From Patescibacteria group bacterium (GTDB taxonomy: Bacteria > Patescibacteriota > Minisyncoccia > 2-02-FULL-40-12 > GWA2-44-9), in assembly GCA_038078535.1 (NCBI GenBank), contig JBBTYS010000024.1, positions 1 through 36,199 on the forward strand: 36,199 bases of DNA, given 5' to 3'. Both the position numbers and the translations under genes were made by a program. Position 1 is the stretch's first letter; each line of letters opens with the position of its first letter. The notes beneath the pieces were generated by a model that did no database searches, was not told the origin of the DNA, and saw only the letters and a program-made list of their open reading frames with translations. Below, piece by piece: positions 12,364-31,625 of the stretch.

Positions 12364-12364
12364 G

Positions 12365-12691: not shown

Positions 12692-12721
12692 AATTAAATT
12701 TGGGTTAAGTGAAACTTTTTT

Positions 12722-13957: not shown

Positions 13958-13969
13958 GATCTTGCTTTT

Positions 13970-16168
13970 TTAATCTATTACAACTCCTAAGTTTCTAAGC
14001 GCTGTTTCCAATTTAAGAACCTTTTCAGTCAACCTGTAAAAGTTGTTTCGGATGATAGCCGCATCGTTTGTGTAAATAGTCAAATCGGTATAATTAGCAA
14101 TTACGCTGACAGTTCCACCGGATGTAACGTTATTGACCAAAATCGTATTTACTGACTGCTGAGTTGCGGTTAATATATTACCGCTTGCATCAAATTGCAG
14201 AGAGCCAACAGGTGTACCTGAAAATGAACTACTAGAAGTGTATGAACTTAATTTTAATTGCCCTGTTGAAATCATCCTTAGTTTTTCGTTGGCCGCTGCG
14301 CCTGCCGCCATTGTTTTAAAAACAATATCAAAATCTTCAGACGCTCCTGTTAAATCTGTGGACACCGATGAGATAATACCGCCTATCTCATCTACTGACC
14401 CTGTAAAAGTGGTAAACGTTATTGCGCCTCCAAAACCTACCGCCTCTACACCTGAACTATTGCTTTTTATATCCAGAACATTTCCAACAGTAGTGGTATT
14501 TGTGGTTGTACCATAAACAACAAGTCCGGTAGTACTTAATGTTGCTTGCGCAGCAGATGTGCCAAGCGACAAAAGAATATTACCGCTCGCTTTAGTAACA
14601 AATTGAAAGCCCACATTTGCGGCACTTCCGGAGGCGGTTATAACTCTGTCCGCTCCCGCTAATCCGGTATCTCCAAAAGTGGCGTTACCGTTGGCCGGAC
14701 TAAATATTTTACCACCAATAGCATTGGTGCCATCACTCACCATCAATTCAGTATTAGCCGCTGAGTTGGTGATACCGCCACCACCCGTTGAAGCAATAGT
14801 AACTGTTCCTGCCGAACCTGTTCCACCGGTAGTCAGTGTTATATTAGAGCCTTCAATCAATTGAACCGATCCTCCGGAGGCCGATAGCGTTACGGTGTGG
14901 CTAGTCGCATCAGAAGTATTGTTGATCGTTTGATCTCCTGTATTTGCTCCTGTAGCTGTTCCACCACCAGTTGCAAAATCTGCACCTGTTAATGCGGTAT
15001 TAAATTCTGCCAGTGACCCCGTGATACCAACAATACTGGTTTGATCTCCTGTATTCGTCCCTGAGTTTATCCCGGTAATATCAGAGGTGAATGCCAGAGT
15101 ACCTGCCGCGTCTTTAAGAGTATAAATTCTATCTGCGGTATTTGTGTTTACAAAATTTCCATTGAAAGTATTGGCAACGTTTCTCAAAAAGAATTTTGTG
15201 TCGTTAAAAGTTTTAGCCCCTGTTACTGTTTGAACATCCGCTAACACCATGTCACCCGATCCACTTGTTACCGTTGACGTTGGGATTAACCCGTAAGCTG
15301 TTAAAGCATCTGCTATCTCTTGAGATGTAGTTACGGCTCCTTGTTTTACAACTGCCGTAGCATTGAAAAAACCTAATTTTGCCCCAGCCCTGGTTTGAAT
15401 ATTTATAGCACCTTCTGTACCGCTTGCATTCGGAAGCCCGGATGTTAAAGACACATTTCCTCCGTTAGTGTCTCCTGAGGCATAGCCAGCTCCACCATTC
15501 AAATTAAGATTTTGGCCCGTGGTAGCCGAAACCAATCCAGTTGCTGCTGAAATAATCCATGAAGCAGGAGCTGCCAAGCTGCCTTTCACCGAAGTAAATG
15601 TGGCTGCATCGGGAGCTATTTCATAATAATTATCAAATGGGCTTCCTGATCTTATAGTTACTTTTCCTGCACCTTTAACATTTAATGAAAACCCAACATC
15701 AGCAGCGCTTCCACTAGCAGAAAGTGTTCTATTCGTTCCAGATAATCCACCATCACCCAATGTTAAATCTCCATTTGCCTGACTAAATATTTTACCGCCA
15801 ATAGCATTGGTGCCATCACTCACCATCAATTCGGTACTAGCCGCTGAGTTAGTAATTCCACCGGCAGGAGCCCAGCTACCATCTGCTCGTAAAAAATTAA
15901 CAGTGCCCCCCCCACTGGCTGGTACCAAGCCACGAATGGCGGTACCAAAAAGCGTAGGAAATAATTTTTTGCGTACTCCATTTTCATACCCAACCCATTC
16001 GTTGGATTGGTACAGGTAAGTAAGCACCCCATAGCCAGAAGGCACCACCAATGCAGTGCTGTCTGCCAGCTTGGAGCGTACAGCACTTGCAGGCACAACG
16101 CCTGTTTGCCCAATACAATAGGAAATGGGCAGTAGGCAATAGGCAAGTATGGTAACTAACCGTTTCAT
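13970..16168 (-). CDS. Tail-fibre-like repeat protein with a signal-peptide-like N-terminus
   Basis: 732 aa, Gly/Thr/Ser/Asn-rich. It has two GxNTGDQT motifs and a duplicated module of about 70 aa, ITNSAA.TELMVSDGTNAIGGKIFS..., 361 aa apart. Confidence 0.6.
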   Translation of the reverse strand: MKRLVTILAYCLLPISYCIGQTGVVPASAVRSKLADSTALVVPSGYGVLTYLYQSNEWVGYENGVRKKLFPTLFGTAIRGLVPASGGGTVNFLRADGSWAPAGGITNSAASTELMVSDGTNAIGGKIFSQANGDLTLGDGGLSGTNRTLSASGSAADVGFSLNVKGAGKVTIRSGSPFDNYYEIAPDAATFTSVKGSLAAPASWIISAATGLVSATTGQNLNLNGGAGYASGDTNGGNVSLTSGLPNASGTEGAINIQTRAGAKLGFFNATAVVKQGAVTTSQEIADALTAYGLIPTSTVTSGSGDMVLADVQTVTGAKTFNDTKFFLRNVANTFNGNFVNTNTADRIYTLKDAAGTLAFTSDITGINSGTNTGDQTSIVGITGSLAEFNTALTGADFATGGGTATGANTGDQTINNTSDATSHTVTLSASGGSVQLIEGSNITLTTGGTGSAGTVTIASTGGGGITNSAANTELMVSDGTNAIGGKIFSPANGNATFGDTGLAGADRVITASGSAANVGFQFVTKASGNILLSLGTSAAQATLSTTGLVVYGTTTNTTTVGNVLDIKSNSSGVEAVGFGGAITFTTFTGSVDEIGGIISSVSTDLTGASEDFDIVFKTMAAGAAANEKLRMISTGQLKLSSYTSSSSFSGTPVGSLQFDASGNILTATQQSVNTILVNNVTSGGTVSVIANYTDLTIYTNDAAIIRNNFYRLTEKVLKLETALRNLGVVID

Positions 16169-19546: not shown

Positions 19547-22369
19547 TTAAATAGTTATAGCCATCACCTTTTTGGTGCGTTGACTCGATTTGGATTTGGA
19601 TTTTTTACCATTAGCCTTTACTCCGGCTAGGGCAGGAGCAGCCACTTGTGCAGGTGCCGCTTGCGCTATCTGTGCTGGCGCTGCTTTGCTACCGCGAAGC
19701 GCAAAGGCCAACAGACCTACGCCAACAGCCACACTTGCAGCAATGGCGATGTACTTCACCGTGTTGCTCTTTTGCTCGTTTAGCATTTTGGTTTCCACCA
19801 CTTCCGCTTCCTGTATGGGCAGTGTTACAATGCGGCCTTCTTCGTTTTGCACAGGCACAATGCCTGGCTTAGTGAATTGCTCTACCGCTGATGGCGAGGC
19901 ATTGTTTTGAACCAGGGTTTCGGCAACCTGCATTGCTGTGGGCGCCACTTCCTCAATGGCTGCTGATATTTCTTTGGCCAGTATGGGGTTCTCTTGCGCG
20001 ATAGACTTTGAGGCTATCTCGGTGGCAACCGGATTGTTTTTCATGGCCGATACCAACGGTGCCGCTTGTGGGTTGGCCTTTAATAGTGCAGCCGCTATTG
20101 TGGGCGACTTAGCGTTGATTATCTGAGAAGCGATGGATGATAATTTGGGATTACTGGTAAGCACTTTGGCCAGCGTGGCAACAGCGGGGTTTGATTGCGC
20201 CATCGCGTTTGTTACACTTGATGTAAGTTTTGATACCAATGGGTTTGAACCGGCAACTTTTGGTATAAGTGATTGCAGTATGCTTGTTGGAGCAAATGAA
20301 TTTATGATATTAGATATGGGTAATGGTGTTACATTTGGGTCGCCCTCATCGTCAATGTCGTCAGTGCTTTCGGCTGTTACTGATGCGCTTTTTATTTCGG
20401 CATCACTTGCATGAGGTGAACTTGCACGGCCTTTGAACATGGTAGTGAAGTTGATAGGCTTCAACAGCGCGGCAATAGCTGCCAACACGCCCGCTGCGGC
20501 TGTGGTTGAAACAGGATCGCCTAATGAAGCTTTTGTGATCGCTATCTTTTTGCCGGCTTCCACGGCATCGCGCAGTTGCTGTGTGGTGCCTCCTTTACTT
20601 ACCACCAGCTTCTCTACTACTTTTGCACGGTCCAGTAGTTTTTTATATTCTACAGTGTTATAGGTAGATGCTTCGCTCACTGGCTTATAGGCCAGGCTTA
20701 ATTTTGTGGCAAGGCCATTTTGGTTTTTGCGGATGGCCTGAAGCAGCTCTTCTAACTCCGATGCATCCTGCGTGCGTATCAATGCACTGTACTCAATCGG
20801 TTTCAACTGAGCGTCTACCAGTTGCAGCAACGGCAGCGCAGGGCTTATTTGTTTTTTGATAGCCGCGATTTGTTTGCTCTGTGATGTGGTCTTGGCTTTT
20901 ACTGCCTGCGCTTTCTTTGAAGCGTTGCCACGATCACCTAACCCATCGAACCCATTGAACCCACTGATGAGGTTGTGTTTTTTTGTACCATGTGCCCAGC
21001 CTGCTTTAACAGCGGCATCAAATTTTTCAACCTTGCCGCCAATGGCTTTGTGTAATTTGCGGGTCTTCTCCAGTGTGACCTGGTTCTTTCTCCACTCCAC
21101 AATGTCCAATCCTTTTTCCTGCGCCTGGGCTTCCGTCCAATAACCATATCCAAGCTTTTCGGCCATGCGAAAAAGGTTGAGCTTCATGGCCAGCAACAGC
21201 CCGTTGCGTATGGCTATGGTAGCGGGGTTGTAGCGCACTATCACTTTGGCCACTACTTTGGCGGCCTGCACTATGGCTGCACCAGCGGCCTTTACTCCGC
21301 TGCCTACCTTTGAGGCCACTGACTTAATACCTTTGGCTATTTTTTTAAAGAAGCCTTTACCAAGGCCAAAGCCACTAAGTCCGTTTAGCTCTTCGCGCTC
21401 TTCCAGGCAGGCCAGTTCGTTAAGGACTTTTGAACGGGTGTTGCCATCGTCAAACACGGCAATGAGCGAATCGAGCCTTTGGGCGAAAACAGCAGGGTTA
21501 TAAATGCCTGCCGTAAGTGCAGGGTTGATGGCAAGTATTGCACGGGTGTTGACCAGGTGCTGCTTAAGGCCAAGCAAAAAAGCAGTTTGCACCTGCCTGG
21601 GGCTTTCACCATTAAATCCGTTGAGGCCGTTAAATTCGTTTCCAAATATGCCAAGCAATTCTTCTGCTGAAGAAGGGGCTGGGTATGCCAGTAACGAAAA
21701 AGCCTGTGGCGTAATGCCGCCAGTGATCGTTGACTGATCAAGTCCATTGAGATATTGTATTTTCATAACCTTATCAAATTTTTTGAGGGGTTCTACTTCG
21801 TGATCGAACTTATCCACCACGCAATCCATGACGTAGTATTTATTGCGGGCTACTTCTTTGGCGGTAAAATCAGTGATGGGTACACCTTTCTTTGGCACCA
21901 CCACATACACATGCTGCCAGCCTGTGCTTTCGTTATATGCCGCCTTTCTAAGGGCATGGCTAATTTTTTGGTGGTGTAAATAGGAAGAGAGCAACACGCT
22001 CATACAATCGCAGTCGATACCTCTTTTGCGATCCAGCCAACTGCGGCCTGGCCTGCGTATCTGCTCAATGCCGTTGGCATCTTTTGCATATTGAAAGTGA
22101 TTGTAGACGTGGTTCCAATCATTGCGCAGTGTTTCTTCCAGGGTGCGGCCTTGCAGTGTTGGCGCTACCTTTTCGGTATCTTCCAAGGTGTTGAGCACGA
22201 TCTTAGCCATGTGGTTAAGCGTATCGTAGGTGTCGCTTGCCTCGCCTCCTATGATGGGGTTTGTGCCCAATAGAAATTCTTTGTTGTACAGGCTGTCGTA
22301 TTCGGTGCCAGGGCGGATGTTACGCCTGCCCGATGCCACAAGTCCAAGTCCGATCAATGCTCTTCTCAT
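19547..22369 (-). CDS. Large protein with an N-terminal transglutaminase/papain-like Cys-His-Asp core, an Ala-rich helical body and a C-terminal TM helix
   Basis: 940 aa. Candidate triad: GIDCDCMSVLLSSYL (Cys), GWQHVYVVV (His), YYVMDCV (Asp). The centre is long and Ala/Lys-rich. The C-terminus has YIAIAASVAVGVGLLAFAL followed by a basic tail. Confidence 0.6.
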   Translation of the reverse strand: MRRALIGLGLVASGRRNIRPGTEYDSLYNKEFLLGTNPIIGGEASDTYDTLNHMAKIVLNTLEDTEKVAPTLQGRTLEETLRNDWNHVYNHFQYAKDANGIEQIRRPGRSWLDRKRGIDCDCMSVLLSSYLHHQKISHALRKAAYNESTGWQHVYVVVPKKGVPITDFTAKEVARNKYYVMDCVVDKFDHEVEPLKKFDKVMKIQYLNGLDQSTITGGITPQAFSLLAYPAPSSAEELLGIFGNEFNGLNGFNGESPRQVQTAFLLGLKQHLVNTRAILAINPALTAGIYNPAVFAQRLDSLIAVFDDGNTRSKVLNELACLEEREELNGLSGFGLGKGFFKKIAKGIKSVASKVGSGVKAAGAAIVQAAKVVAKVIVRYNPATIAIRNGLLLAMKLNLFRMAEKLGYGYWTEAQAQEKGLDIVEWRKNQVTLEKTRKLHKAIGGKVEKFDAAVKAGWAHGTKKHNLISGFNGFDGLGDRGNASKKAQAVKAKTTSQSKQIAAIKKQISPALPLLQLVDAQLKPIEYSALIRTQDASELEELLQAIRKNQNGLATKLSLAYKPVSEASTYNTVEYKKLLDRAKVVEKLVVSKGGTTQQLRDAVEAGKKIAITKASLGDPVSTTAAAGVLAAIAALLKPINFTTMFKGRASSPHASDAEIKSASVTAESTDDIDDEGDPNVTPLPISNIINSFAPTSILQSLIPKVAGSNPLVSKLTSSVTNAMAQSNPAVATLAKVLTSNPKLSSIASQIINAKSPTIAAALLKANPQAAPLVSAMKNNPVATEIASKSIAQENPILAKEISAAIEEVAPTAMQVAETLVQNNASPSAVEQFTKPGIVPVQNEEGRIVTLPIQEAEVVETKMLNEQKSNTVKYIAIAASVAVGVGLLAFALRGSKAAPAQIAQAAPAQVAAPALAGVKANGKKSKSKSSQRTKKVMAITI

Positions 22370-22947
22370 TTTTTTATGAAAATGTTTTGGTCTCTGACAC
22401 CGATTGACTTAAGCCACATGGGCACGTAAAAACCTGGGCAGTCTTTTTTGGCGAACTGGTTATGCCCAGCGCCTTTTATTTCTGGATGATAAGTGATGAT
22501 TTGATTTACCCATGCTTCCATTGTGGCACGCTGCGCGGGTGTGCGTGTATCTTTCGAGGCGGTGCCATCTTTGGTAAGGCCACCGGCATACACCAGGTGA
22601 CGGCCAATTGAATTGGTGCCAGTTGCACCGTTGCTGATCTCGCGTGGGTCTACATTGTCGTCTTCATCGTAAGGGATAAGATTGACGAGCGATCCATCTA
22701 ACAGGATCATATCAGAATATCCAACTTTGCTCCAACCGCGACCGCTTAGTTTTTTTACATCTACTCCGCCTATCTTTTCATCGGGGAGATCCAGAATACT
22801 TTCGTAGGGGGTTGACTTGTAGATTACGCTGCCATCGGCATTGACAAGCGGCCCCATGTGCCACTGGCGAATTTCATCAGGGGTAACGGGGCGACCTTCC
22901 GGTGTGGCGGTGCAATGGATGATGAATAATTGCAACTTTTGTGACAT
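22366..22947 (-). CDS. N-acetylmuramoyl-L-alanine amidase (Amidase_2 / T7-lysozyme-like)
   Basis: 193 aa from the ATG at 22947 (the track start at 22959 is TTG). Motifs IIHCTATPEG and GWSKVGYSDMILLDGS. ATGA overlap with the 940-aa gene. Confidence 0.75.
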   Translation of the reverse strand: MSQKLQLFIIHCTATPEGRPVTPDEIRQWHMGPLVNADGSVIYKSTPYESILDLPDEKIGGVDVKKLSGRGWSKVGYSDMILLDGSLVNLIPYDEDDNVDPREISNGATGTNSIGRHLVYAGGLTKDGTASKDTRTPAQRATMEAWVNQIITYHPEIKGAGHNQFAKKDCPGFYVPMWLKSIGVRDQNIFIKK

Positions 22948-23102
22948 GATCGCTGCCAAGATGTGCAGCGATGGAATGGGGCAAGTCCGCTTTAGTCCAC
23001 TATTGACCTTTTACTACCAATAGTTGGCAAAAGTTTCCTATTTTTACAGGTAGTATTCGGGGAATCAGTTACGAAGTGTTTTGATAACGTTAACTGATTG
23101 AT

Positions 23103-23758: not shown

Positions 23759-24018
23759 CAAACGGGTTCACTTTCATTTTTAAATTCGTAAGTCCATTCA
23801 TCTGTTTCTTCGCTTAGGTATGCTTCTGCTTTTTCCTTCCACTTCACAAGTTCATTCTTAAGTTCGTCTGTTACCGGAACATTAATACCAGCACCAAACA
23901 TGCCTTCCTTGTAGCCGCAGTAAGGGCACCAATACTCGCAGTATGGATGACGGAACGTCCATATCAGCGGCACTTGCCTTTCGTGGCTTCTGCAAATTTT
24001 AATTGATTCGTTGCTCAT
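23758..24018 (-). CDS. Small Cys-rich (zinc-ribbon-like) protein
   Basis: 86 aa with CRSH...CEYWCPYCG. Confidence 0.45.
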   Translation of the reverse strand: MSNESIKICRSHERQVPLIWTFRHPYCEYWCPYCGYKEGMFGAGINVPVTDELKNELVKWKEKAEAYLSEETDEWTYEFKNESEPV

Positions 24019-24679
24019 AATTTATTTTAGGTTGCGCTCTTTCAAGAGCAATGTGTTTTTGAAATCGTTTTTCCTGATTCGCAAAATGTGTTGGGTCTAT
24101 CTCCAAGCCCACAAAGTCAAAACTCATATCCCATGCGGCTATGCGATGGCTACCACTGCCCAGGTGAGTGTCGAGAATGTTATCACCTGGTTTGGCGTAT
24201 TCTTTCAACAGCCACTTGTATAGTAACACTGGCTTTTGTGTGGGGTGTATGCGTGGCTCGTTCAGTTTCTTATTGCCTTGCATGATGTGGCCTTCGCCTA
24301 TGCTCTTTCCGTGCATCATGCCATTCCACATAAAGCGAAACATGCGTGTGCTATCGTGAAAGCTGCAATAAGCTAATTCGCAATCGCTGAAATCGGTGTT
24401 ACCGTTTACTTTATCCCACACAATGCGGCCTGAACCAAACTGGTATTGGTAATAGTTACATCCCCAAATAATCTGGTTTTCAGATACGCGAAATAGCTGA
24501 TCAAAATATTCTTTGTCGGGCACTTGCCATGTGTCTGTTATTGGATACTCATCGCGAGACACACCCGTAACAGAAACTTTGTTGCCGTAAAATGGTCGCT
24601 TCTCATGGCCGGAGTAATACGGAGGATCGACAATGGCAATTTTGTATTGCTTGTCTTTCATGCTGCGCAAGTGATCCAT
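23999..24679 (-). CDS. DNA methyltransferase, beta-class N6A/N4C (N6_N4_Mtase type)
   Basis: 226 aa. The catalytic motif IVDPPY is near the N-terminus. HPTQKPVLLYKWLL and the AdoMet motif ILDTHLGSGS are near the C-terminus. Confidence 0.85.
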   Translation of the reverse strand: MDHLRSMKDKQYKIAIVDPPYYSGHEKRPFYGNKVSVTGVSRDEYPITDTWQVPDKEYFDQLFRVSENQIIWGCNYYQYQFGSGRIVWDKVNGNTDFSDCELAYCSFHDSTRMFRFMWNGMMHGKSIGEGHIMQGNKKLNEPRIHPTQKPVLLYKWLLKEYAKPGDNILDTHLGSGSHRIAAWDMSFDFVGLEIDPTHFANQEKRFQKHIALERAQPKINYEQRIN

Positions 24680-24722: not shown

Positions 24723-24953
24723 TTACCATCGCCCAATCGGGCATTTTGTTTCTTTAATCTTAGTTTGCTCTTCCATATTGATTCCATTGCAATGCCCATC
24801 CTTTAAGCCATACTTTCCACCGTCTGGTTTTAAGGTGTGAGGGCACAACAGACAATCGGCAAAACGGAGATCGCTGTCAAAATCTGAATTGACTTTATCG
24901 TCAATATTAAATCGAGATTTTAAAAGCGAGTTGATTCTTATAGGTTCACTCAT
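24723..24953 (-). CDS. Hypothetical small Cys-containing protein
   Basis: 76 aa, with ATGA coupling to the upstream 98-aa ORF. Confidence 0.4.
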   Translation of the reverse strand: MSEPIRINSLLKSRFNIDDKVNSDFDSDLRFADCLLCPHTLKPDGGKYGLKDGHCNGINMEEQTKIKETKCPIGRW

Positions 24954-25246
24954 GTAAACTCGTAGTATTCATTATCACCTTTAATCGTTGTTTCAAACGG
25001 GAACTTGTTCTTAGGCACAAGCTTAATCATGTCCATCATCACCTTTGATCCGGTGAATACAATTCGCTTTTCACCTCCTTTTTCAATTTGAAGTGTTAGT
25101 AATTCAGTTCCTGCTTTCTTATTCGATGGCGTTATCTTATAGTCAAATACGGTGATGGGCAGGTTGAATAGCTTTTGTATCGCTATTTTTTCGCCAACAA
25201 AGGAATTGATATTAGGCTGAATGTTGAAGTCTTTGAAGTTGTTCAT
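24950..25246 (-). CDS. 98-aa protein translationally coupled to the DGR RT (possible non-Avd accessory factor)
   Basis: Its ATG (25244-25246) overlaps the RT stop (25243-25245) as CAATGAAC. The sequence is MNNFKDFNIQPN...RIVFTGSKVMMDMIK...; it looks beta-rich and basic, not a four-helix bundle. Confidence 0.55.
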   Translation of the reverse strand: MNNFKDFNIQPNINSFVGEKIAIQKLFNLPITVFDYKITPSNKKAGTELLTLQIEKGGEKRIVFTGSKVMMDMIKLVPKNKFPFETTIKGDNEYYEFT

Positions 25247-26193
25247 TGCGCTAGTAGTTTTTTGGTCAAGTGCCTGGCATTGCAGTGGCCGAGCCAACCG
25301 AGATAGGAAGCTTTAGACGGATGATTGGGATTCTTACTCAGCTTACGTGCGAAATTCTTTTTAATTGATTTGCGGATCATCACATGCGTATGCCGAAATA
25401 CATAACCGACAAAGTCTATTCCCCTTACATCCACCGGAAAGACCTGGTGAGTTTGTTTCACTTCAAGTTTAAGGTCGTGCAGGTATGCTTTTGCCTCATT
25501 CATCAATGTGTGAAGTCTCGACTTATCTGAATCGAGAATCACAATATCATCGGCATAACGGTAGTAGTATTTAACCCGCTTTTCTTCTTTGATCCAATGG
25601 TCGAAATATGACAAGTAAAAATTCGCCAGGTATTGACTCAGGTAGTTGCCAATTGGCAAACCGGGGGCACTGTCAATGATCTCGTCAAGTAACCATAGCA
25701 GGTCTGGGTCTTTAAATTTCTTTCTGAGCAAGGCGTTAAGTACATCGTGGTCGATGCTTGGGTAGTATTTCTTTATGTCAAACTTGAGGCAATATTGCGT
25801 TCCTGAAATGTCTTTTAAATCGGCATTCAATTTTTGCAGTAGTAAGTGAATACCTCTTTTCTTAATGCAACTGTATGTATCAGCAGTGAATGAACTGACA
25901 AAGATTGGCTCCAGCACATTCATGATTGCATGGTGAGTGATGCGATCAGGAAAGTAGGGCAACCGATAAACTACTCTCTCCTTTGGTTCATAGATGTTGA
26001 AGATGTCGTATTCGGATGTACGATAGGTCTTGCTCACAAGCAGGTCTTGTAGCACGAGAAGATTTCCTTCTTTATTTTGGTTGTGTAGCGTTACACCGTA
26101 TTGAGTAGATTTTCCTTGCTGCGCCTTCCGGTCTGCCTCCTGAAGGTTTGCAAGGCTTGTGATCCGCTCGTAGATGTTACCAATTCTTTTCAT
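25243..26193 (-). CDS. DGR-type reverse transcriptase
   Basis: 316 aa. RT motif 5 is YYRYADDIVIL. The motif-4 variant LPIGNYLSQYLANFYL ((I/L)GxxxSQ) is typical of DGR RTs. The adenine-rich TR lies 122 nt upstream. Confidence 0.9.
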   Translation of the reverse strand: MKRIGNIYERITSLANLQEADRKAQQGKSTQYGVTLHNQNKEGNLLVLQDLLVSKTYRTSEYDIFNIYEPKERVVYRLPYFPDRITHHAIMNVLEPIFVSSFTADTYSCIKKRGIHLLLQKLNADLKDISGTQYCLKFDIKKYYPSIDHDVLNALLRKKFKDPDLLWLLDEIIDSAPGLPIGNYLSQYLANFYLSYFDHWIKEEKRVKYYYRYADDIVILDSDKSRLHTLMNEAKAYLHDLKLEVKQTHQVFPVDVRGIDFVGYVFRHTHVMIRKSIKKNFARKLSKNPNHPSKASYLGWLGHCNARHLTKKLLAQ

Positions 26194-26315
26194 TTTGTTT
26201 TATGCTTTGCTTTTCATAAGTCGCCTTCTCCCGAAACTTCGGGATACCAACGCCTCAGATTTTGATCCGTGTTTTTTTGCCAAGAGGCAAGGTCTGCGAC
26301 AGTTTCTAATACCTC

Positions 26316-26392
26316 AGCATAGGTGAGAGCTGACATTCGAATTCGTATTCCAATTATCGTAGTCGTTATACTGGAACCCGGACGAAGCCACT
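26316..26392 (-). repeat. DGR template repeat (TR), 77 nt
   Basis: Minus strand: AGTGGCTTCGTCCGGGTTCCAGTATAACGACTACGATAATTGGAATACGAATTCGAATGTCAGCTCTCACCTATGCT. It has 20 adenines, and all differences from the three VRs fall on these adenines. It is intergenic between target 1 and the RT. Confidence 0.9.
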
Positions 26393-26418
26393 CAACCATC
26401 GCACAACCTGTTTTTCAT

Positions 26419-26817
26419 TTAAAGCATGTATTCTTTACACACCTTCAGATAATTCTTATTGTCTTCACACATCCACTTCATTACATCGTAATTTTTAAAG
26501 CAAAGGCGAGAGCCGACAAGCGAATCCGCACGCCAAGCACCGTAGCCGACACACTGGAACCCGGACGAAGCCACTATAAAGCGTGGCTCATACTTCCAGT
26601 CGGTGTTGTTATAGTCAGGCTTCCACGGCTTACCATCATTGGCCAATCTGTTAGCTGCCTTCACCATAATAACAACCTTGGATTGTGCTATCTGAGATTT
26701 TCTATCCTTCTTTGGAAACAGAGCCGCTAACTGGATTGACGCTGCAACTATCTTCTTAGCATCAAGCCCTTCAAGCTTGCATGCCTTTTCAAATGTTAAT
26801 TGTTTGATCTCTTTCAT
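26419..26817 (-). CDS. DGR target protein 1 (small paralog family)
   Basis: 132 aa. ...WKYEPRFIVASSGF-QCVGYGAWRADSLVGSRLCF-KNYDVMKWM...; the VR encodes about residues 81-107. No signal peptide. Confidence 0.8.
   Translation of the reverse strand: MKEIKQLTFEKACKLEGLDAKKIVAASIQLAALFPKKDRKSQIAQSKVVIMVKAANRLANDGKPWKPDYNNTDWKYEPRFIVASSGFQCVGYGAWRADSLVGSRLCFKNYDVMKWMCEDNKNYLKVCKEYML
26499..26575 (-). repeat. DGR variable repeat VR1
   Basis: 77 nt, ungapped against the TR, with 16 substitutions, all at TR adenines. Confidence 0.9.
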
Positions 26818-26824
26818 TTGGTTT

Positions 26825-27290
26825 TTATTTTTGAATAGTCATGAATAGTTTAAACACGTTCATAAATTCGGGTTGCTCAATGGCATGTAGTCCAAGCCTC
26901 TTTTCCATAAAGCAAAGGCGAGAGCCGACATCCGAAGCCGTAAACCAAGCAGCGCAGCCGAGACAGGAACCCGGACGAAGCCATGAGAAAGTAGAGAGTG
27001 AACTTAGGCGCTGTTGAATCCCAGTCTGGTTCTCGCTTTTCATTGAGGGCTCTGATGATCAATACAGTCAACTGATAGTTTACAACGTGGCAAGTTGCGT
27101 CAAACAGGGTGAGAAGTTTCTTGTAAATGATCACCTCTTCATCCTCTTCTCCAAGTTCGCGTAGAACATCTAGTATAGTTTTGATTTTGGTTACATCCTT
27201 TGGCTTCGCTTTGAGCGTGTACGCGCCAGATGCTTTGTCGAAGGTGTCTATCTCTTGCCCTTCGGGGATTTTAAGTTGCGGTGTTTTCAT
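26825..27290 (-). pseudogene. DGR target paralog 2, frameshifted inside its VR
   Basis: The N-terminal frame (27290 down to 26877) reaches ..LMASSGF. A 2-nt gap relative to the TR (AG after GGGTTCC) moves the conserved tail ..CLGCAAWFTASDVGSRLCFMEK.. into the frame of ORF 26825-27043. Confidence 0.7.
26911..26983 (-). repeat. DGR variable repeat VR2 (with a 2-nt deletion)
   Basis: 73 nt aligning to TR positions 3-77 with one 2-nt gap. 16 substitutions, all at TR adenines. Confidence 0.85.
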
Positions 27291-27292
27291 GT

Positions 27293-27697
27293 TTATTTGA
27301 TTATGATTAGTTGCTCATACCACTTTGTGAATTTTCTACCTGCATGAATAGCCAATGAGCTATCTTTTAAGCAAAGGCGAGAGCCGACACCCGAAAGCGC
27401 AAGCCAACCACCGAAGACGTAATACCGGAACCCGGACGAAGCCACAATAAAGCGTGGCTCATACTTCCACTGATTGTGGTTTTTATGGTCGGCAATCCAT
27501 CCTTGATTGAGGGATTTGATCAGCAACTTCAAAAACCTGAATGCCACCTCATCTTCTGGCAAGCCTTCGCATTGTTTGTTAAATTTATCTTGCGTGAGGC
27601 CATTGTCTTTCAACACATCTTCATCGGTGTTGATTCGATTCATTACTTGTTCTGTTGTTTCCATATTGTTTTGTTTTGGGTTTAATTTGATTTTCAT
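27293..27697 (-). CDS. DGR target protein 3 (small paralog family)
   Basis: 134 aa (an alternative ATG at 27664 gives METTEQ...). ..WKYEPRFIVASSGF-RYYVFGGWLALSGVGSRLCL-KDSSLAIHAGRKF.. Confidence 0.8.
   Translation of the reverse strand: MKIKLNPKQNNMETTEQVMNRINTDEDVLKDNGLTQDKFNKQCEGLPEDEVAFRFLKLLIKSLNQGWIADHKNHNQWKYEPRFIVASSGFRYYVFGGWLALSGVGSRLCLKDSSLAIHAGRKFTKWYEQLIIIK
27370..27446 (-). repeat. DGR variable repeat VR3
   Basis: 77 nt, ungapped against the TR, with 18 substitutions, all at TR adenines. Confidence 0.9.
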
Positions 27698-27723: not shown

Positions 27724-29331
27724 TTATCTTAAAGTGTCTACACATCTTTCTACCAGCAATTCCATTGCAGGCGGGGTTACGGCATTGCCGCATTGTTTTA
27801 CTTGTTCTTTGGCATTACCCAGCACGATGTAATCGGCATCAAAGCCCATCCCTATTTTTACTTCGTGCTTCAGCAACATGCGGTAATAGCAATCATCTAT
27901 TTTGGGTTTCGCTCCCAACATTACCAGGCTTGCCCGATCTTTTGTGGTAAGGGTTCGTACTGGCTCGTTTACATCACTTGCTTGTGTGCCACCATAGTAG
28001 TAACTGAGAAAGCTCTTTAGCGATTTGTCGGTGACTATACCATTCTTAATAAAGCCTGCGGTAATGGTGCTGAGTGGCTTTGTGGCCAGCCTTGCTTTGC
28101 CTGTGCGGTGCAGGTCTACAATCAATGGAGGCATTACTACTCCGTTGGTTGCTCTGGTTGTTTGCGTAAAGGCTACCTCACTTGCAGCATCGCGTATTTT
28201 ATTTCTTCCGTTGCTATACTCTCCATTGGTGACAAGTGGAGAGAGTATGTGAAAACCGTTGTCAGTAAGTTGAGTTGGCAATGGGTCTTTAACACTGTCT
28301 TTTACCAATGAGCCAGGCAAAGTATTATGATTGCGTTTAACGATGATCGGGTTAAGTATGCCATAGCTTTGATCTCCTGGCTGAGTGGGCAATACCTCCT
28401 GTGTGGCATCCTTCACGCGGCAACTAATGCCAGATGTGTAGCGTGTGGTAATAATCTGGGGCTTGTTCCAATATTTTTCTATGCCGTATTGAATGCGCTT
28501 GACTGTATTTTCACTCAACGGCTTTTTGCGATCTCCTATGCGAGTGCCCGGTATGCTCCAATCAATGCAGTTGAATGCAGCATAGTAATATGGCTCAACC
28601 AGGTGGTTGCATGTAGGGCATTTGAAGACGTATTGTTGCTTATACTTGCCCCATTGCTTTTCGGTGGTCTTCCAGGCTTGATAGGTTTCGGTTTCTTTTG
28701 CACAATGTTGACAAAACCCACGTGGGCGTATGTTCAGGTCAGGAGCGGGATTGCCCTTCTTCCAGAACACCACGTACATTCTATCGCGGCTTTGGGGTGT
28801 AGGGTGTGCATGTTGTGAGTTGAGATAAACGCATTTGTGATTGTAGCCAAGCAGGTGCATGGCTTTCAACCAGGCATCCCACATTACCCAATACCTGGCA
28901 TCCACAACGTTCTCCACAATGATGAATGCGTATTGATGAAACTCTGCAAAGCGGGGCACATCCCACATGGTGGCTCTGGATCTCTCGTCAGTGTGATCAA
29001 TCGTGGCACGGCCAAACATTTCTATTTGTTGCTGCCACTTGCGTTTGATGCCTTTAGCCAGGGAGTGATTGGTACACTCAGGCGATGTGATGAGAAAGGT
29101 AGAGCTTGCATACCTGCGGGGGTCACAGGCAGATATATCTGTGCAGTCGTGATCGGTATCGGGGAAGTTGGTATTGTGCGTTTCAATGGCAAGCTTCCAG
29201 TGGTTGAGTGCGAGCTTTACGCGGATGCCGCTGTTGCCTGGCTTCCTGGAAAGGTTTCTTACTCCCTGGCTACTTCCACCCGCTCCGCAAAACTGATCGG
29301 TAACGGTGATGTCTGAGTCTATTCTTTTCAT
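27724..29331 (-). CDS. DNA (cytosine-5) methyltransferase
   Basis: 535 aa from the ATG at 29331. Motif I DQFCGAGGSS, motif IV-like ITSPECTNHS, motif VI IIVENV, motif X QCGNAVTPP. It has a long variable region. The track start at 29352 lies inside palindrome copy 2. Confidence 0.85.
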   Translation of the reverse strand: MKRIDSDITVTDQFCGAGGSSQGVRNLSRKPGNSGIRVKLALNHWKLAIETHNTNFPDTDHDCTDISACDPRRYASSTFLITSPECTNHSLAKGIKRKWQQQIEMFGRATIDHTDERSRATMWDVPRFAEFHQYAFIIVENVVDARYWVMWDAWLKAMHLLGYNHKCVYLNSQHAHPTPQSRDRMYVVFWKKGNPAPDLNIRPRGFCQHCAKETETYQAWKTTEKQWGKYKQQYVFKCPTCNHLVEPYYYAAFNCIDWSIPGTRIGDRKKPLSENTVKRIQYGIEKYWNKPQIITTRYTSGISCRVKDATQEVLPTQPGDQSYGILNPIIVKRNHNTLPGSLVKDSVKDPLPTQLTDNGFHILSPLVTNGEYSNGRNKIRDAASEVAFTQTTRATNGVVMPPLIVDLHRTGKARLATKPLSTITAGFIKNGIVTDKSLKSFLSYYYGGTQASDVNEPVRTLTTKDRASLVMLGAKPKIDDCYYRMLLKHEVKIGMGFDADYIVLGNAKEQVKQCGNAVTPPAMELLVERCVDTLR

Positions 29332-29341
29332 AGTTAGGTTG

Positions 29342-29361
29342 AGACGCAACATTTTGCGTCT
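29342..29361. repeat. Palindromic element, copy 2
   Basis: agacgcaa-catt-ttgcgtct, 10 nt upstream of the C5-MTase ATG. The flanks ggtt(t)gagacgcaacattttgcgtctttac are shared with copy 4. Confidence 0.75.
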
Positions 29362-29484
29362 TTACATTAAGTGGATTATGAAATTGATAAGTGCATAGCA
29401 ATTCTTACAACCTTGCGAAACTTTGTCACAGCCTGTTACAGGGTTCCAGGTGTAGTCTGTCCACTCGATAGTTGTCTTGTTCAT
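29362..29484 (-). pseudogene. Truncated N-terminal remnant of a DUF5131 (phage Gp37/Gp68) gene
   Basis: 40 codons: [31 protein letters not shown], then LINFIIHLM-stop. As I recall it, this family is normally about 250 aa. The reading frame ends exactly at palindrome copy 2. Confidence 0.6.
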
Positions 29485-29930
29485 ATAGTTGATTGTATGA
29501 GTGGAGACGCAAAATTTTGTGTCTTTACGCTTTTCATGTCTAGTAGATAAACATCGATCATGTCTACAATTTCCTGTTGCCATACTATCCACACGGTAGG
29601 CCGCTGGTAGGCTTGCTCTTTAAAGAACTGAAAGAAAACCTTGCTATCATTAAAGCCATCGGTGGTAGCAAACCAATGCTGAATAACTGGTACGAGCGAC
29701 ACGCCATCTAAAATGATTTGATGCTTTTTGTAGTTTACTTTGATCGGGTACACCTTCACACACTTGTACTCTACATGCTTGTGGCATTGCTTTGTGCGCA
29801 TACCAGTAAACATTTTTAGTATATCACCTTCGCGTATTGGCCGCTTGCGGTTTACCTGGCGCACGGTGCCTAGCTTGGTGCCATTGACCACGCTGAAGAT
29901 GAATTGCTTTTTGAAGTTGACGGCTGGCAT
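29481..29930 (-). CDS. ASCH-domain-like protein
   Basis: 149 aa. The N-terminal pattern [20 protein letters not shown]...REGDIL resembles ASCH (K..TIR ... GD). The C-terminal tail VKTQNFAS is encoded by the palindrome. Confidence 0.45.
29505..29524. repeat. Palindromic element, copy 3
   Basis: agacgcaaaattttgtgtct (one G-T wobble). It lies 20 nt upstream of the ATG at 29484, inside the 3' end of the ASCH-like CDS. Confidence 0.75.
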
Positions 29931-30710: not shown

Positions 30711-31013
30711 TTATTTCCGGTTGATTAGCCATTGATAACCATTTTCTAGTTTTTTCAAATCCGCCTCCTGGTTCAGTGGCAGTGTGATGTCTTTTGTTAC
30801 CTGCCTGTTCATTAGCCATCGATAATCCTTTTCTAGTTTTCCTAAATCCGCCTCCTGGTTTAGTGGCAGTGTGAGTTGAGTTTCCTTTTTGATCTTGCGG
30901 TCGCGCCTGTTGATTTTCTTAAACAGGTTGTCTTTTGCAACCTGCCGTTGCGCTTCATTGCTGAAGATGTTTGGCAAACTGATAATCACTTTGAGAAGTT
31001 GTATTGATCTCAT
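30711..31013 (-). CDS. Hypothetical protein with a 29-aa tandem repeat
   Basis: 100 aa from the ATG at 31013 (ATGA overlap). The repeat is TLPLNQEADL(G/K)KLE(K/N)(D/G)Y(R/Q)WL(M/I)NR, present twice. Confidence 0.45.
   Translation of the reverse strand: MRSIQLLKVIISLPNIFSNEAQRQVAKDNLFKKINRRDRKIKKETQLTLPLNQEADLGKLEKDYRWLMNRQVTKDITLPLNQEADLKKLENGYQWLINRK
30724..30875. repeat. 87-bp-period tandem duplication (two units of about 65 bp, about 88% identical)
   Basis: attagccattgataacc...cagtggcagtgtga at 30724-30788, and attagccatcgataatc...tagtggcagtgtga at 30811-30875. Confidence 0.8.
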
Positions 31014-31342
31014 GCTCCCATCATTTGTGGTGGACAAAAACTACCTAGCTCGAATAAAATCTGGTTGCCTTCTTTGGTTTCGCCTACACGCTGAAGAACA
31101 TCTACTAGTAACACTGCATGAACAGCATCGAACTTTACCTTCAAAACCTTGCGGCCTTCCTGCAACATGCCATCGTGCCGTTTGCGAAGTGATTCATAGA
31201 ATTTCTTCACCAATGCGCACCGATAGAATTCCTCGCGGTTGATGTCTCTGCGGTTGGCCACACCCAGCCAATAGATGAACAGCGTGGAGAGAAATCCATC
31301 CAGGTCGTGGTAATCCATCGGTATGGTTTTCACGGCTTTCAT
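31010..31342 (-). CDS. Hypothetical protein
   Basis: 110 aa from the ATG at 31342 (MKAVKTIPMDYHDL...). The longer track ORF starts inside palindrome copy 4. Confidence 0.45.
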   Translation of the reverse strand: MKAVKTIPMDYHDLDGFLSTLFIYWLGVANRRDINREEFYRCALVKKFYESLRKRHDGMLQEGRKVLKVKFDAVHAVLLVDVLQRVGETKEGNQILFELGSFCPPQMMGA

Positions 31343-31440: not shown

Positions 31441-31625
31441 TTTGATTGGATGGTTTGAGACGCAACATTTTGCGTCTTTACTGAGTACAACTGCACCTGC
31501 ACTTTGTTAAGCTCGTCATGCTTGCGCCAGAAATCATCGCTGTCACGGTCGCCCTTGCGTATAAAAGCGTGTATTTCCTTCTGGATCTCGCGCTCTTGCT
31601 GTCTGAGTTTGGATTTGTCGGTCAT
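31437..31625 (-). CDS. Hypothetical small charged protein
   Basis: 62 aa, ATGA coupled on both sides. Confidence 0.45.
   Translation of the reverse strand: MTDKSKLRQQEREIQKEIHAFIRKGDRDSDDFWRKHDELNKVQVQLYSVKTQNVASQTIQSK
31458..31477. repeat. Palindromic element, copy 4
   Basis: agacgcaa-catt-ttgcgtct, inside the 3' end of CDS 31437-31625 (it encodes VKTQNVAS). Confidence 0.75.

What the first reader, a model, noticed from the sequence alone, without database searches (positions are those of the whole stretch)
26419..27697. The DGR targets are three tandem small proteins without signal peptides in the early/accessory region, not tail-fibre genes
Phage DGRs classically diversify the C-terminal C-type-lectin-fold tip of a receptor-binding fibre. 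Here the fibre-like genes (10183-16168) carry no copy of the TR flank GGCTTCGTCCGGGTTCC. The VRs instead sit in proteins of about 130-155 aa. These share (K/R)AxN..W.PDW...(W)KYEPRF..ASSGF-[VR]-VGSRLC(F/L)K...A...G..F and have divergent helical N-termini. The ..GSRLCF ending is reminiscent of the GFR(L/C)xx end of FGE/CLec-type VRs, but only about 25 aa precede the VR motif block and about 25 aa follow it. The gene position (between methyltransferases, upstream of the RT) and the three-fold paralogy suggest two possibilities: a diversified binding module with an intracellular or anti-host role, or an adaptor that docks onto the particle. I cannot name this family from memory.
Basis: partly seen in the sequence, partly recalled or inferred. 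Interest (0 to 1): 0.75.

Follow-up and report, generated by a model that had tools for sequence, protein, structure and literature searches.

The report
Small tandem DGR-diversified phage proteins
A prophage's mutagenic retroelement rewrites a short strand-and-loop segment in three neighbouring small soluble proteins rather than in a tail fibre; the protein family is widespread in Bacteroidota phages and already catalogued as a "non-structural/unknown" target, but its ligand and role are still unknown.

Summary
On the minus strand there is a complete diversity-generating retroelement (DGR). It has three tandem target genes (27697-26419), a template repeat (TR, 26392-26316), a reverse transcriptase (RT, 26193-25243) and a conserved 98-aa ORF. 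All TR/VR (variable repeat) differences inside the repeat fall on TR adenines. The middle target carries a 2-nt deletion inside its VR, so it is frameshifted as assembled.

The targets are not an unknown family. They match the short "CLec3" targets of Wu 2018. Five genomes carrying this cassette are listed in Roux 2021 with target cluster PC_00007 ("Phage_other", non-structural/unknown).

Of 159 related loci, 128 have the same RT immediately downstream. These usually carry two, sometimes three, tandem copies, in a position-conserved long/short pair. In Mu-like relatives the cassette lies in the early transposition operon, convergent to the virion genes. In a gut phage a family member in the replication module is a remote VR.

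AlphaFold gives a confident helical plus beta-hairpin model with no PDB match, so a minimal C-type-lectin fold is not supported.

The function remains unknown. I favour an early-expressed, non-virion paired binding module; a virion adaptor is not excluded. This is a new member of a known but uncharacterised kind.

The parts
27293..27697 (-). Target gene 1 in transcription order (134 aa), 'long'-type paralogue lacking the usual N-terminal extension. VR3 is at 27370-27446.
   Evidence: ORF; 17 TR-adenine substitutions; family profile hit; AlphaFold model with pLDDT 86.5
26825..27290 (-). Target gene 2, disrupted by a 2-nt deletion inside its VR (VR2 at 26911-26985). Repaired length is 155 aa.
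   Evidence: Two overlapping ORFs in different frames; gap in the TR/VR alignment; repaired protein is 73% identical over its full length to intact P0089; intact orthologue in L001
26419..26817 (-). Target gene 3 (132 aa), 'short' RT-proximal paralogue type. VR1 is at 26499-26575.
   Evidence: ORF; 16 TR-adenine substitutions; orthologue of the 131-aa gene in L001
26316..26392 (-). Template repeat (TR). Its variable part is 39 nt with 16 adenines, covering 13 codons of which 11 are mutable and 5 are AAY.
   Evidence: Repeat family D2; alignment; codon analysis giving 4.3e9 DNA and 3.1e9 peptide variants with no stop codon reachable
26317..26334 (-). IMH*-like 3' end of the TR (GTCAGCTCTCACCTATGC). 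It differs at three adenines from the invariant IMH-like GTCGGCTCTCGCCTTTGC found in all three VRs (26500-26517, 26912-26929, 27371-27388). That element encodes VGSRLC.
   Evidence: The IMH/IMH* assignment is an inference from the BPP-1 model and from Wu 2018's statement that the 3' constant residues are encoded by the IMH.
26194..26315 (-). TR-RT spacer (non-coding, about 120 nt)
   Evidence: Sequence. The 61-aa 'ORF' at 26214-26399 is the TR read as protein.
25243..26193 (-). DGR reverse transcriptase (316 aa) with IGNYLSQ (residues 181-187) and YADD (213-216)
   Evidence: RVT_1 at 1.1e-18 and phrog_1423 at 4.6e-117; motifs; close homologues sit next to the family in 128 loci
24950..25246 (-). 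Conserved 98-aa ORF whose start overlaps the RT stop. It is a candidate DGR accessory protein with no detectable sequence similarity to Avd.
   Evidence: It is the first gene after the RT in 108 of 123 loci. A homologue (E 7e-12) occupies the target-X-TR-RT slot in gut-phage DGRs. No Pfam, NCBIfam, PADLOC or PDB-sequence match.
27724..29352 (-). Flanking C5 cytosine DNA methyltransferase, 26 nt upstream of target 1 on the same strand
   Evidence: PF00145 at 4.2e-22
23999..24679 (-). Flanking N6/N4 DNA methyltransferase, downstream on the same strand
   Evidence: PF01555 at 1.4e-13 and phrog_23224 at 1.8e-56

Best explanation
This is a complete DGR cassette of a lineage common in Bacteroidota temperate phages. 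Its layout is [tandem small target genes]-TR-RT-[98-aa accessory candidate].

Mechanism, inferred from the BPP-1 paradigm:
- The TR is transcribed together with its spacer.
- The RT, probably with the 98-aa protein, makes cDNA in which template adenines are copied at random.
- The cDNA replaces the VR in each of the three paralogues. Homing is guided by the shared 5' homology (GTGGCTTCGTCCGGGTTCC) and the invariant 3' IMH-like element (GTCGGCTCTCGCCTTTGC).
- Eleven codons are randomised. This gives about 3e9 peptides per gene, and no stop codon is reachable.

In the AlphaFold model the randomised residues lie on the second strand of a beta-hairpin and the loop after it. They are held by a conserved helical scaffold. 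The protein is a roughly 130-155-aa soluble protein without signal peptide or TM segment.

The targets match the short CLec3-class targets of Wu 2018. Five genomes carrying this cassette are listed in Roux 2021 with target cluster PC_00007.

The paralogues form an ancient long/short pair that is sometimes fused into one chain. They therefore probably act together as a two-headed or heteromeric binder.

Most likely, though inferred and not shown, they are early or middle-expressed, non-virion proteins that bind a variable host or competitor molecule inside the cell. The ligand is unknown.

My confidence by layer: DGR identity and family assignment about 0.95; non-CLec scaffold about 0.6; non-virion intracellular role about 0.45. 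The overall figure given reflects the whole statement, including the functional inference.
For: DGR identity:
- TR and three VRs with 16, 15 and 17 substitutions, all at TR adenines.
- RT with IGNYLSQ and YADD motifs.
- No other VR in the window.

Family assignment:
- hhalign against Wu's t120 156-aa target gives probability 99.5%, E 3.6e-22.
- Five genomes carrying the same cassette (IMG 2582581873, 2585428184, 2627853621, 2630968489, 2636415439) are listed by Roux 2021 as viral, FCB, DGR clade 1. Their target is PC_00007 with the VR at 0.74-0.82 of the protein.
- Roux's supplement calls PC_00007 non-structural/unknown, with 1.6% of members predicted structural.

Generality:
- 2,834 representatives at 50% identity.
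- 128 of 159 loci are RT-linked, with 2 copies in 105 loci and 3 copies in 16.
- All 269 RT-adjacent copies match the local TR.

Activity:
- In cassettes 94-98% identical, VR windows differ at 0.16-0.25 per nt against 0.013-0.05 elsewhere. The TR window is unchanged or nearly so in 5 of the 6 informative pairs, but has 10 mismatches in L044/L146.

Pairing:
- Copy 1 has a median of 155 aa and copy 2 a median of 128 aa.
- The best cross-locus hit keeps its position class in 227 of 255 cases.
- Two-domain fusions exist, for example P0278, which is followed by a third copy and the RT.

Fold:
- pLDDT 86.5, pTM 0.81, with six helices and one hairpin.
- No PDB fold match and no PDB sequence match.

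Early or non-structural placement:
- In the window the genes are tightly packed in one operon with two DNA methylases.
- In about 40 of 125 loci the cassette follows the Mu transposase, MuB-like ATPase and DUF3164 genes on the same strand. There it faces convergent portal, MuF and morphogenesis genes.
- In a gut phage a 202-aa member lies between recombination and replication genes. It is a remote VR of the DGR elsewhere on the contig, with 11 of 11 differences at TR adenines.
- One representative is fused to a ParB-N domain.
Against: - No experiment or proteome bears on localisation. Gene position is only indirect evidence of timing, and phage structural accessory proteins can be encoded outside the late module.
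- In gut phages the same TR also serves a tail-module target. So the small protein could act at the same step, adsorption.
- The two-domain fusion model was too weak to show how the pair packs (pTM 0.59, VR loops below 50).
- The role of the 98-aa ORF is inferred from synteny only.
- The middle target is frameshifted here, so only two of the three targets are intact in this assembly.
Confidence: 0.55

Rival explanations
1. The small proteins are unrecognised virion components. They would be adaptors or tip adhesins that dock non-covalently onto fibres, baseplate or capsid. DGR diversification would change host range, as with Mtd in BPP-1.
For: - Most phage DGR targets with an assigned role are tail proteins (Roux 2021).
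- In gut phages one TR serves both a tail-module target of about 390-460 aa and a family member.
- The strongly conserved aromatic scaffold (NEGWxPDWxNxxxxKYYPWF) could be a docking surface.
- Roux's supplement explicitly leaves open that PC_00007 could be an uncharacterised structural protein.
- Virion proteins need no signal peptide.
Against: - The genes are never adjacent to fibre genes in the loci examined.
- In Mu-like relatives they are in the early operon, convergent to the morphogenesis genes.
- In the gut phage the member is embedded among recombination and replication genes.
- Only 1.6% of PC_00007 members were predicted structural by PhANNs.
- No fibre fusions were seen; one ParB-N fusion was.
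- No PHROG structural annotation; phrog_11581 is of unknown function.
Confidence: 0.27
2. The VR-bearing domain is a highly reduced or derived C-type-lectin fold, as the literature label CLec3 implies. On this view Foldseek and AlphaFold simply fail to show it.
For: - Wu 2018 place these VRs in class CLec3, assigned as CLec through Phyre2 on target proteins.
- The order of elements (helices, then beta-strands carrying the VR, then a short strand at VGSRLCF) loosely resembles alpha1-alpha2-beta2-beta5.
- Roux 2021 expect uncharacterised VR domains to be new CLec variants.
- The VR forms a beta-hairpin, as it does in tentaclin CLec domains.
Against: - The model has only one hairpin and six helices. 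Two helices follow the VR instead of a C-terminal strand pairing with an N-terminal one.
- No CLec structure appears among 126 PDB matches; the best has E 0.37 and probability 0.18 or less.
- BFVD matches are only to uncharacterised proteins, not to Mtd-like ones.
- Profile similarity to a long CLec3 target covers only the 13 IMH-encoded columns.
Confidence: 0.3
3. The proteins serve the lysogen rather than the lytic phage. They would be prophage-expressed hypervariable sensors or exclusion factors that recognise incoming phages or competitors. This would resemble the DGR-diversified conflict-system sensors described in multicellular bacteria.
For: - All related loci with host context are prophages in Bacteroidota genomes.
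- DGR-diversified intracellular sensors have precedent (PMC10907252, listed).
- The proteins are cytoplasmic.
Against: - No effector domain or partner is conserved next to the cassette. The only conserved neighbour is the 98-aa ORF.
- No PADLOC hit.
- The genes are translationally packed inside a long lytic-type operon, with no autonomous moron-like unit.
Confidence: 0.1

Closest known systems
Target protein cluster PC_00007 ('Phage_other') of DGR clade 1, Roux et al. 2021 (PMC8144416)
   Same: Five genomes carrying this cassette (same RT size of about 320 aa, viral, FCB hosts) are listed there with target cluster PC_00007. The VR sits at 0.74-0.82 of the protein, compared with about 0.72 here. 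The cluster is classed as non-structural/unknown.
   Different: Nothing structural or functional is given there beyond clustering. The tandem long/short pair, the 98-aa conserved ORF, the predicted fold and the early-operon context are worked out here. Membership of the window's own proteins is inferred through homologues, not from Roux's sequence files.
VR class CLec3, short targets t120 (NZ_AMSG01000002.1, 156 + 123 aa in tandem) and t121 in the Wu et al. 2018 reference set (PMC5758913)
   Same: Full-length homology to t120 (hhalign probability 99.5%). Same tandem arrangement and same ...GSRL(C/Y)F end.
   Different: Wu discuss only the long (about 2,000 aa) CLec3 targets (category f1). The CLec assignment for the class is not supported for the short proteins by the model made here.
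Bordetella phage BPP-1 DGR (Mtd, Avd, TR, bRT)
   Same: A-specific TR-to-VR information transfer, AAY codon design, a GC-rich invariant 3' element in the VR that differs from the TR copy, and a phage-borne cassette.
   Different: The target there is a trimeric C-terminal CLec tail-fibre tip with a single VR. Here there are three small non-fibre proteins with the VR followed by two helices. There is no Avd detectable by sequence. Gene order is targets-TR-RT-98aa rather than mtd-avd-TR-brt.
Gut-phage DGRs of the Alistipes t122 type (primary target about 390-460 aa ending VGSRLCFLPA; Roux PC_00002)
   Same: Closely related RT (E about 1e-134). The accessory ORF is homologous to the 98-aa protein. 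The VR 3' end is the same. A PC_00007 family member serves as a remote VR.
   Different: There the small protein is a secondary, distant target and the main target sits in the tail module. Here the small proteins are the only targets and are adjacent to the TR.
Tentaclins (PMC10743442)
   Same: They are non-fibre DGR targets in phages with more than one target gene, and the VR forms a beta-hairpin.
   Different: Tentaclins are 313-649 aa with an N-terminal DUF6273/CLec domain plus Ig domains, and come from Firmicutes-type gut myoviruses. There is no homology and no Ig domains here.

Membership tests
Diversity-generating retroelement (DGR) | TR/VR repeat pair whose differences fall on TR adenines | tested here: met
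   There are 16, 15 and 17 substitutions in VR1, VR2 and VR3, all at TR adenines within the homologous stretch.
Diversity-generating retroelement (DGR) | RT of the DGR class ((I/L/V)GxxxSQ motif, YxDD) adjacent to the TR | tested here: met
   IGNYLSQ at residues 181-187 and YADD at 213-216. RVT_1 and phrog_1423 hits. Related loci's RTs are listed as DGR clade 1 by Roux.
Diversity-generating retroelement (DGR) | IMH at the VR 3' end differing from IMH* in the TR (directionality) | tested here: met
   GTCGGCTCTCGCCTTTGC is identical in the three VRs, against GTCAGCTCTCACCTATGC in the TR. The functional role is inferred.
Diversity-generating retroelement (DGR) | Avd (four-helix-bundle accessory protein) or HRDC accessory gene | tested here: not met
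   No Avd or HRDC hit in Pfam or NCBIfam for any cassette ORF. A profile of the 98-aa ORF finds no Avd among PDB sequences. A different conserved ORF occupies the accessory role by synteny.
Diversity-generating retroelement (DGR) | Ongoing mutagenic retrohoming | tested here: inconclusive
   This cannot be tested on the window itself. In related cassettes 94-98% identical, VR windows are 4-14 times more divergent than the rest. The TR window is unchanged or nearly so in 5 of the 6 informative pairs, with 10 mismatches in one pair.
Roux 2021 target cluster PC_00007 / Wu 2018 short CLec3 targets | Full-length sequence homology to catalogued members | tested here: met
   hhalign of the family profile against t120 gives probability 99.5% and E 3.6e-22 over 146 columns. 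Loci from the five IMG genomes listed with PC_00007 carry the family next to the RT.
Roux 2021 target cluster PC_00007 / Wu 2018 short CLec3 targets | VR internal, at about 0.72-0.82 of the protein; viral; FCB host | tested here: met
   The VR centre is near residue 97 of 134. The window has prophage features, namely an integrase at 168-1304 and lysis genes. Relatives are all Bacteroidota apart from three MAG contigs labelled otherwise.
C-type-lectin-fold DGR variable proteins (Mtd, TvpA, TaqVP, AvpA) | CLec core fold (two helices packed on two antiparallel sheets, N- and C-terminal strands paired) | tested here: not met
   The AlphaFold model (pLDDT 86.5) has six helices and one hairpin. Foldseek against PDB gives best E 0.37 and TM 0.24 or less, with no CLec entry. 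The second model also has no hit.
C-type-lectin-fold DGR variable proteins (Mtd, TvpA, TaqVP, AvpA) | VR at the extreme C-terminus | tested here: not met
   About 25-30 residues forming two predicted helices follow the VR.
C-type-lectin-fold DGR variable proteins (Mtd, TvpA, TaqVP, AvpA) | Sequence or profile similarity of the scaffold to a CLec target | tested here: not met
   Only 13 columns (VGSRLCF) align to the long CLec3 target t122, at probability 54%. A PDB profile search finds no CLec. No Pfam FGE-sulfatase, DUF1566 or Mtd hit in 119 members.
Phage tail fibre / receptor-binding protein | Encoded in the tail module, or homologous or fused to fibre domains | tested here: not met
   The cassette is separated from the fibre-like genes by about 10 kb. 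There is no structural PHROG, no fibre fusions among the listed homologues, and the cassette is convergent to morphogenesis genes in Mu-like relatives.
Phage tail fibre / receptor-binding protein | Presence in the virion | not testable with these tools
   This needs proteomics of purified particles.
Tentaclins | N-terminal CLec (DUF6273) domain followed by Ig-like domains with a conserved C-terminal Ig anchor | tested here: not met
   The proteins are 130-155 aa with no Pfam hit of any kind, so no Ig/Fn3 and no DUF6273. The description of the family is from PMC10743442.

The most novel reading that the evidence does not exclude
The PC_00007 proteins could be a genuinely new, non-C-type-lectin scaffold for DGR hypervariation. 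On this reading they act inside the infected cell as a paired (long plus short) hypervariable binder. That would be the first phage DGR aimed at an intracellular host or competitor target, for example a variable defence or replication factor, rather than at adsorption. The conserved 98-aa ORF would be a new, non-Avd accessory factor for the RT.
Probability: 0.25. Interest if true: 0.85.

Novelty: new member of a known kind. Interest (0 to 1): 0.5.

Why it matters
DGR biology is built on two assumptions: phage DGRs retune adsorption, and variable regions sit in C-type-lectin folds. This family is large. It has at least 2,800 clusters at 50% identity and is the sole target type of a whole Bacteroidota-phage DGR lineage. 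Yet it has only ever been listed, not studied.

Three things seen here point away from the textbook picture:
- the consistent placement in early or replication operons;
- the conserved two-paralogue design;
- a confident predicted fold with no solved relative.

They also make the question testable in cultured lysogens (Myroides, Flavobacterium, Elizabethkingia, Sphingobacterium). If the proteins prove to be virion adaptors, the result is still useful, because it would define a new class of detachable, diversifiable receptor-binding modules. A compact 130-aa scaffold that tolerates about 1e9 variants may also interest protein engineers using DGRs for continuous evolution.

Tried and rejected
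- Library searches. Pfam, NCBIfam and PADLOC gave nothing for the targets or the 98-aa ORF. PHROGs gave only families of unknown function: phrog_11581 for the targets and phrog_19665 for the 98-aa ORF.
- PDB sequence and profile searches gave no credible hit; the best, a nitrile hydratase helix at E 0.0019, is spurious.
- Isolated phages (INPHARED). Megablast with the region and tblastn with the 134-aa protein found nothing. A consensus-like member hit only the N-terminal part of an unannotated stretch at the end of Bacteroides phage BT-TP2. So no cultured, proteomically studied phage could be used.
- A single-sequence word-indexed search found only 5 relatives. The family became visible only with the exhaustive profile search.
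- Modelling a natural two-domain fusion as a proxy for the long/short heterodimer gave a mediocre model (pLDDT 78, pTM 0.59, VR loops below 50). No inference on packing is made from it.
- Tentaclins and the Hankyphage target (2,225 aa, CotH-type) were considered and rejected as relatives.
- The Bacteroides DGR survey (bioRxiv 2024.11.15.621889) describes only C-terminal CLec targets and does not cover this family.
- I could not verify that 10183-16168 are fibre genes by homology, since there were no PHROG, Pfam or PDB hits. They are Gly/Ser/Thr-rich and repetitive.
- A full-text search for the motif GSRLCF and for papers on intracellular or anti-defence phage DGR targets found nothing relevant.
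Full report
**1. What is in the window**

Between 29352 and 23758 all genes lie on the minus strand and are tightly packed. In transcription order they are:
- a C5 cytosine methylase (27724-29352);
- three small genes (27697-27293, 27290-26825, 26817-26419);
- a 77-nt repeat copy outside any real gene (26392-26316);
- a reverse transcriptase (26193-25243; RVT_1 at 1.1e-18, phrog_1423 at 4.6e-117);
- a 98-aa ORF whose start overlaps the RT stop (25246-24950);
- a 76-aa ORF;
- an N6/N4 methylase (24679-23999).

The RT has the DGR-type IGNYLSQ motif and YADD.

The repeat occurs four times. The non-coding copy is the template repeat (TR). Inside the homologous stretch it differs from the three coding copies at 16, 15 and 17 positions, and every difference falls on a TR adenine.

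The chance expectation is 0.03 and 0.01. So there is no VR in the fibre-like genes or anywhere else in the window.

The middle gene has a 2-nt deletion inside the variable part of its VR, so as assembled it is split into two frames. Restoring the two bases gives a 155-aa protein that aligns end to end with an intact 157-aa homologue (73% identity), and the last 37 residues are almost identical. The deletion is thus either very recent, possibly a homing error (inference), or an assembly artefact of a mixed VR population.

**2. Anatomy of the diversification**

The mutable part of the TR is 39 nt with 16 adenines. It covers 13 codons, of which 11 can change and five are AAY. No stop codon is reachable. 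That gives 4.3e9 DNA variants and about 3.1e9 peptide variants per gene.

The segment that encodes VGSRLC is GTCGGCTCTCGCCTTTGC in all three VRs but GTCAGCTCTCACCTATGC in the TR. The same peptide is nearly invariant across the family.

I read this as the IMH in the VR versus IMH* in the TR, as in BPP-1. Wu et al. make the same general statement, that the 3' constant residues are encoded by the IMH. This explains why the "GSRLCF" ending looks like other DGR targets. It is a cis element of the retroelement as much as a protein motif.

**3. The family is large and almost always DGR-linked**

A word-indexed search with one protein found only five relatives. An exhaustive profile search found 2,834 cluster representatives at E <= 1e-3 and 1,167 at <= 1e-10. 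A later profile search found more than 7,000 clusters at 90% identity. Nearly all carry no name or "hypothetical protein" (two have evidently spurious enzyme names), and none has a Pfam domain.

I fetched 159 loci from viral contigs and GTDB genomes. These came almost entirely from Flavobacteriia, Chitinophagia, Sphingobacteriia and Bacteroidia; three MAG contigs carry other or no taxon labels.
- In 128 loci a close homologue of the window's RT lies immediately downstream.
- The number of tandem family copies upstream is two in 105 loci, three in 16, four in one and one in six.
- All 269 such copies match a TR lying between the last copy and the RT, with mismatches mainly at TR adenines.
- L001, a 41-kb prophage contig, has the same three paralogues as the window, all intact.

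Cassettes that are 94-98% identical differ 4-14 times more densely in the VR windows than elsewhere. The TR window is unchanged or nearly so in five of the six informative pairs, but carries 10 mismatches in one (L044/L146). This is what an active DGR leaves behind.

**4. Cassette composition**

Flanking genes vary, but the first gene after the RT is a homologue of the window's 98-aa ORF in 108 of 123 loci. That protein has no match in Pfam, NCBIfam, PADLOC or PDB sequences.

In gut-phage DGRs of the Alistipes t122 type, a 127-aa homologue (E 7e-12) sits between the target and the TR, the slot normally held by Avd. I therefore treat it as the accessory protein of this lineage, by synteny only. 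A classical Avd was looked for and not found.

**5. The paralogues form a conserved pair**

In two-copy arrays the first copy has a median of 155 aa and the second 128 aa. The best hit in another locus keeps its position class in 227 of 255 cases. So the duplication is old and the order is maintained.

Natural fusions of two domains in one chain exist. One example is the 283-aa P0278 in a Sphingobacterium prophage, followed by a third copy and the RT. This argues that the paralogues work together (inference).

An AlphaFold model of the fusion was too weak at the VR loops, and in overall pTM (0.59), to show how they pack.

**6. Fold**

With a 124-sequence alignment, AlphaFold gave a confident model of the 134-aa protein (pLDDT 86.5, pTM 0.81). 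It has four helices, a long beta-hairpin (residues 77-86 and 89-99), a loop and two C-terminal helices.

The mutable residues (91-103) lie on the second hairpin strand and the following loop, which is the least confident part at about 65.

The comparisons gave the following:
- Foldseek found nothing in the PDB (best E 0.37, TM <= 0.24, no C-type lectin).
- In BFVD it found only uncharacterised viral proteins, including some from crAss-like viruses.
- A profile search of PDB sequences found no CLec.
- A profile-profile comparison with a long CLec3 target aligned only the 13 IMH-encoded columns.

**7. It is already catalogued**

Roux et al. 2021 list DGRs in five IMG genomes that carry this cassette in my locus set. 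Each entry is viral, FCB, DGR clade 1, with an RT of about 320 aa, target cluster PC_00007 and the VR at 0.74-0.82 of the protein.

Their supplementary note treats PC_00007 as "non-structural/unknown", because only 1.6% of members were predicted structural. It also notes that such clusters might still be uncharacterised structural proteins.

The Wu et al. 2018 reference set contains members (t120 with two tandem targets of 156 and 123 aa, and t121) under VR class CLec3. The family profile matches t120 at 99.5% probability. Neither paper, nor any other I could find, studies these proteins.

**8. Context and likely role**

The proteins have no signal peptide or TM segment, and the family median pI is 5.3.

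About 40 of 125 RT-linked loci are Mu-like phages. There the cassette follows the repressor, Mu transposase, MuB-like ATPase and DUF3164 genes on the early strand. The Mu portal/MuF fusion and morphogenesis genes lie downstream on the opposite strand.

In a 50-kb gut-phage contig a 202-aa member lies between an SMC-like ATPase, a metallo-beta-lactamase-fold protein, a DnaC-like loader and a C5 methylase. Its VR matches the TR next to the RT elsewhere on the contig, and all 11 differences fall on TR adenines. This is Roux's "secondary PC_00007 target". One representative is fused to a ParB N-terminal domain.

Taken together, these favour an early or middle-expressed, non-virion protein that binds something variable inside the cell. 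That is inference from position and fusions, at about 0.45. A virion adaptor (about 0.27) or a lysogen-side sensor (about 0.1) is not excluded.

**9. Verdict**

It generalises to a whole DGR lineage. However, it is a new member of a known, catalogued but uncharacterised kind, not a new kind.

What remains open and interesting is the function, and whether the scaffold is truly non-CLec.

Noticed in passing
window 24950-25246 (-): A 98-aa ORF overlapping the RT stop is the first gene after the RT in 108 of 123 related cassettes. In gut-phage DGRs (L172 3701-4081) a homologue occupies the Avd slot. It has no match to Avd or to anything else in Pfam, NCBIfam, PADLOC or PDB sequences. It is a candidate new DGR accessory protein.
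   Followed up: partly
window 26911-26985 (-): The middle VR has a 2-nt deletion within its adenine-derived variable part, which frameshifts the gene. The downstream frame is still perfectly conserved, so this is either a recent homing error or an assembly artefact.
   Followed up: yes
L057 7680-8288 (= L166 3392-4000) and L168 8950-9008; contig IMGVR_UViG_3300045988_096864: In a human-gut phage a 202-aa family member lies inside the recombination/replication module. It is a remote VR of a DGR whose TR, RT and primary target of about 390-460 aa lie in the tail/lysis region. One TR therefore diversifies a tail-module protein and an early-module protein.
   Followed up: yes
L002, L005 and about 40 other loci (e.g. 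L002 1-3240; L005 11741-13924): About a third of the related cassettes sit in Mu-like transposable phages of Bacteroidota. They lie at the end of the early operon and convergent to a portal-MuF fusion gene.
   Followed up: partly
window 10183-12363, 12722-13957, 13970-16168 (-): The three fibre-like proteins (726, 411 and 732 aa) are Gly/Ser/Thr-rich. All three start with signal-peptide-like hydrophobic N-termini (e.g. MKKVVVFILMCAGLVSNAQA). The 732-aa protein repeats a segment of about 27 aa (GGITNSAA.TELMVSDGTNAIGGKIFS). None has a hit in PHROGs or Pfam (the 726-aa protein also none in PDB sequences).
   Followed up: no
window 29326-29365, 29489-29528, 31442-31481: There are three copies of a 40-nt repeat containing a hairpin with a 7-bp stem (GACGCAA-N4-TTGCGTC), located between early genes. 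It may be a regulatory or terminator-like element.
   Followed up: no
window 30717-30787 / 30804-30874: An 87-nt tandem duplication lies inside ORF 30711-31037 and gives a repeated peptide (TLPLNQEADL.KLE..Y.WL.NR).
   Followed up: no
window 19547-22369 (-) and 22366-22959 (-): A 940-aa protein with an Ala-rich repetitive C-terminal half and a hydrophobic segment near its end is translationally coupled to an amidase-like gene (phrog_822). It could be a tape-measure or ejection protein. There is no database hit.
   Followed up: no
P0008 (370 aa, metagenomic representative): This is a family domain fused to a ParB N-terminal-like domain. L001 also encodes a separate ParB_N/HTH_ParB protein upstream of its cassette.
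   Followed up: no
window 29481-29930 (-): This 149-aa ORF (phrog_8581) lies upstream of the cassette here. Its homologues (cluster 24) lie downstream of the RT in 12 related loci, so the module around the cassette is shuffled between phages.
   Followed up: no
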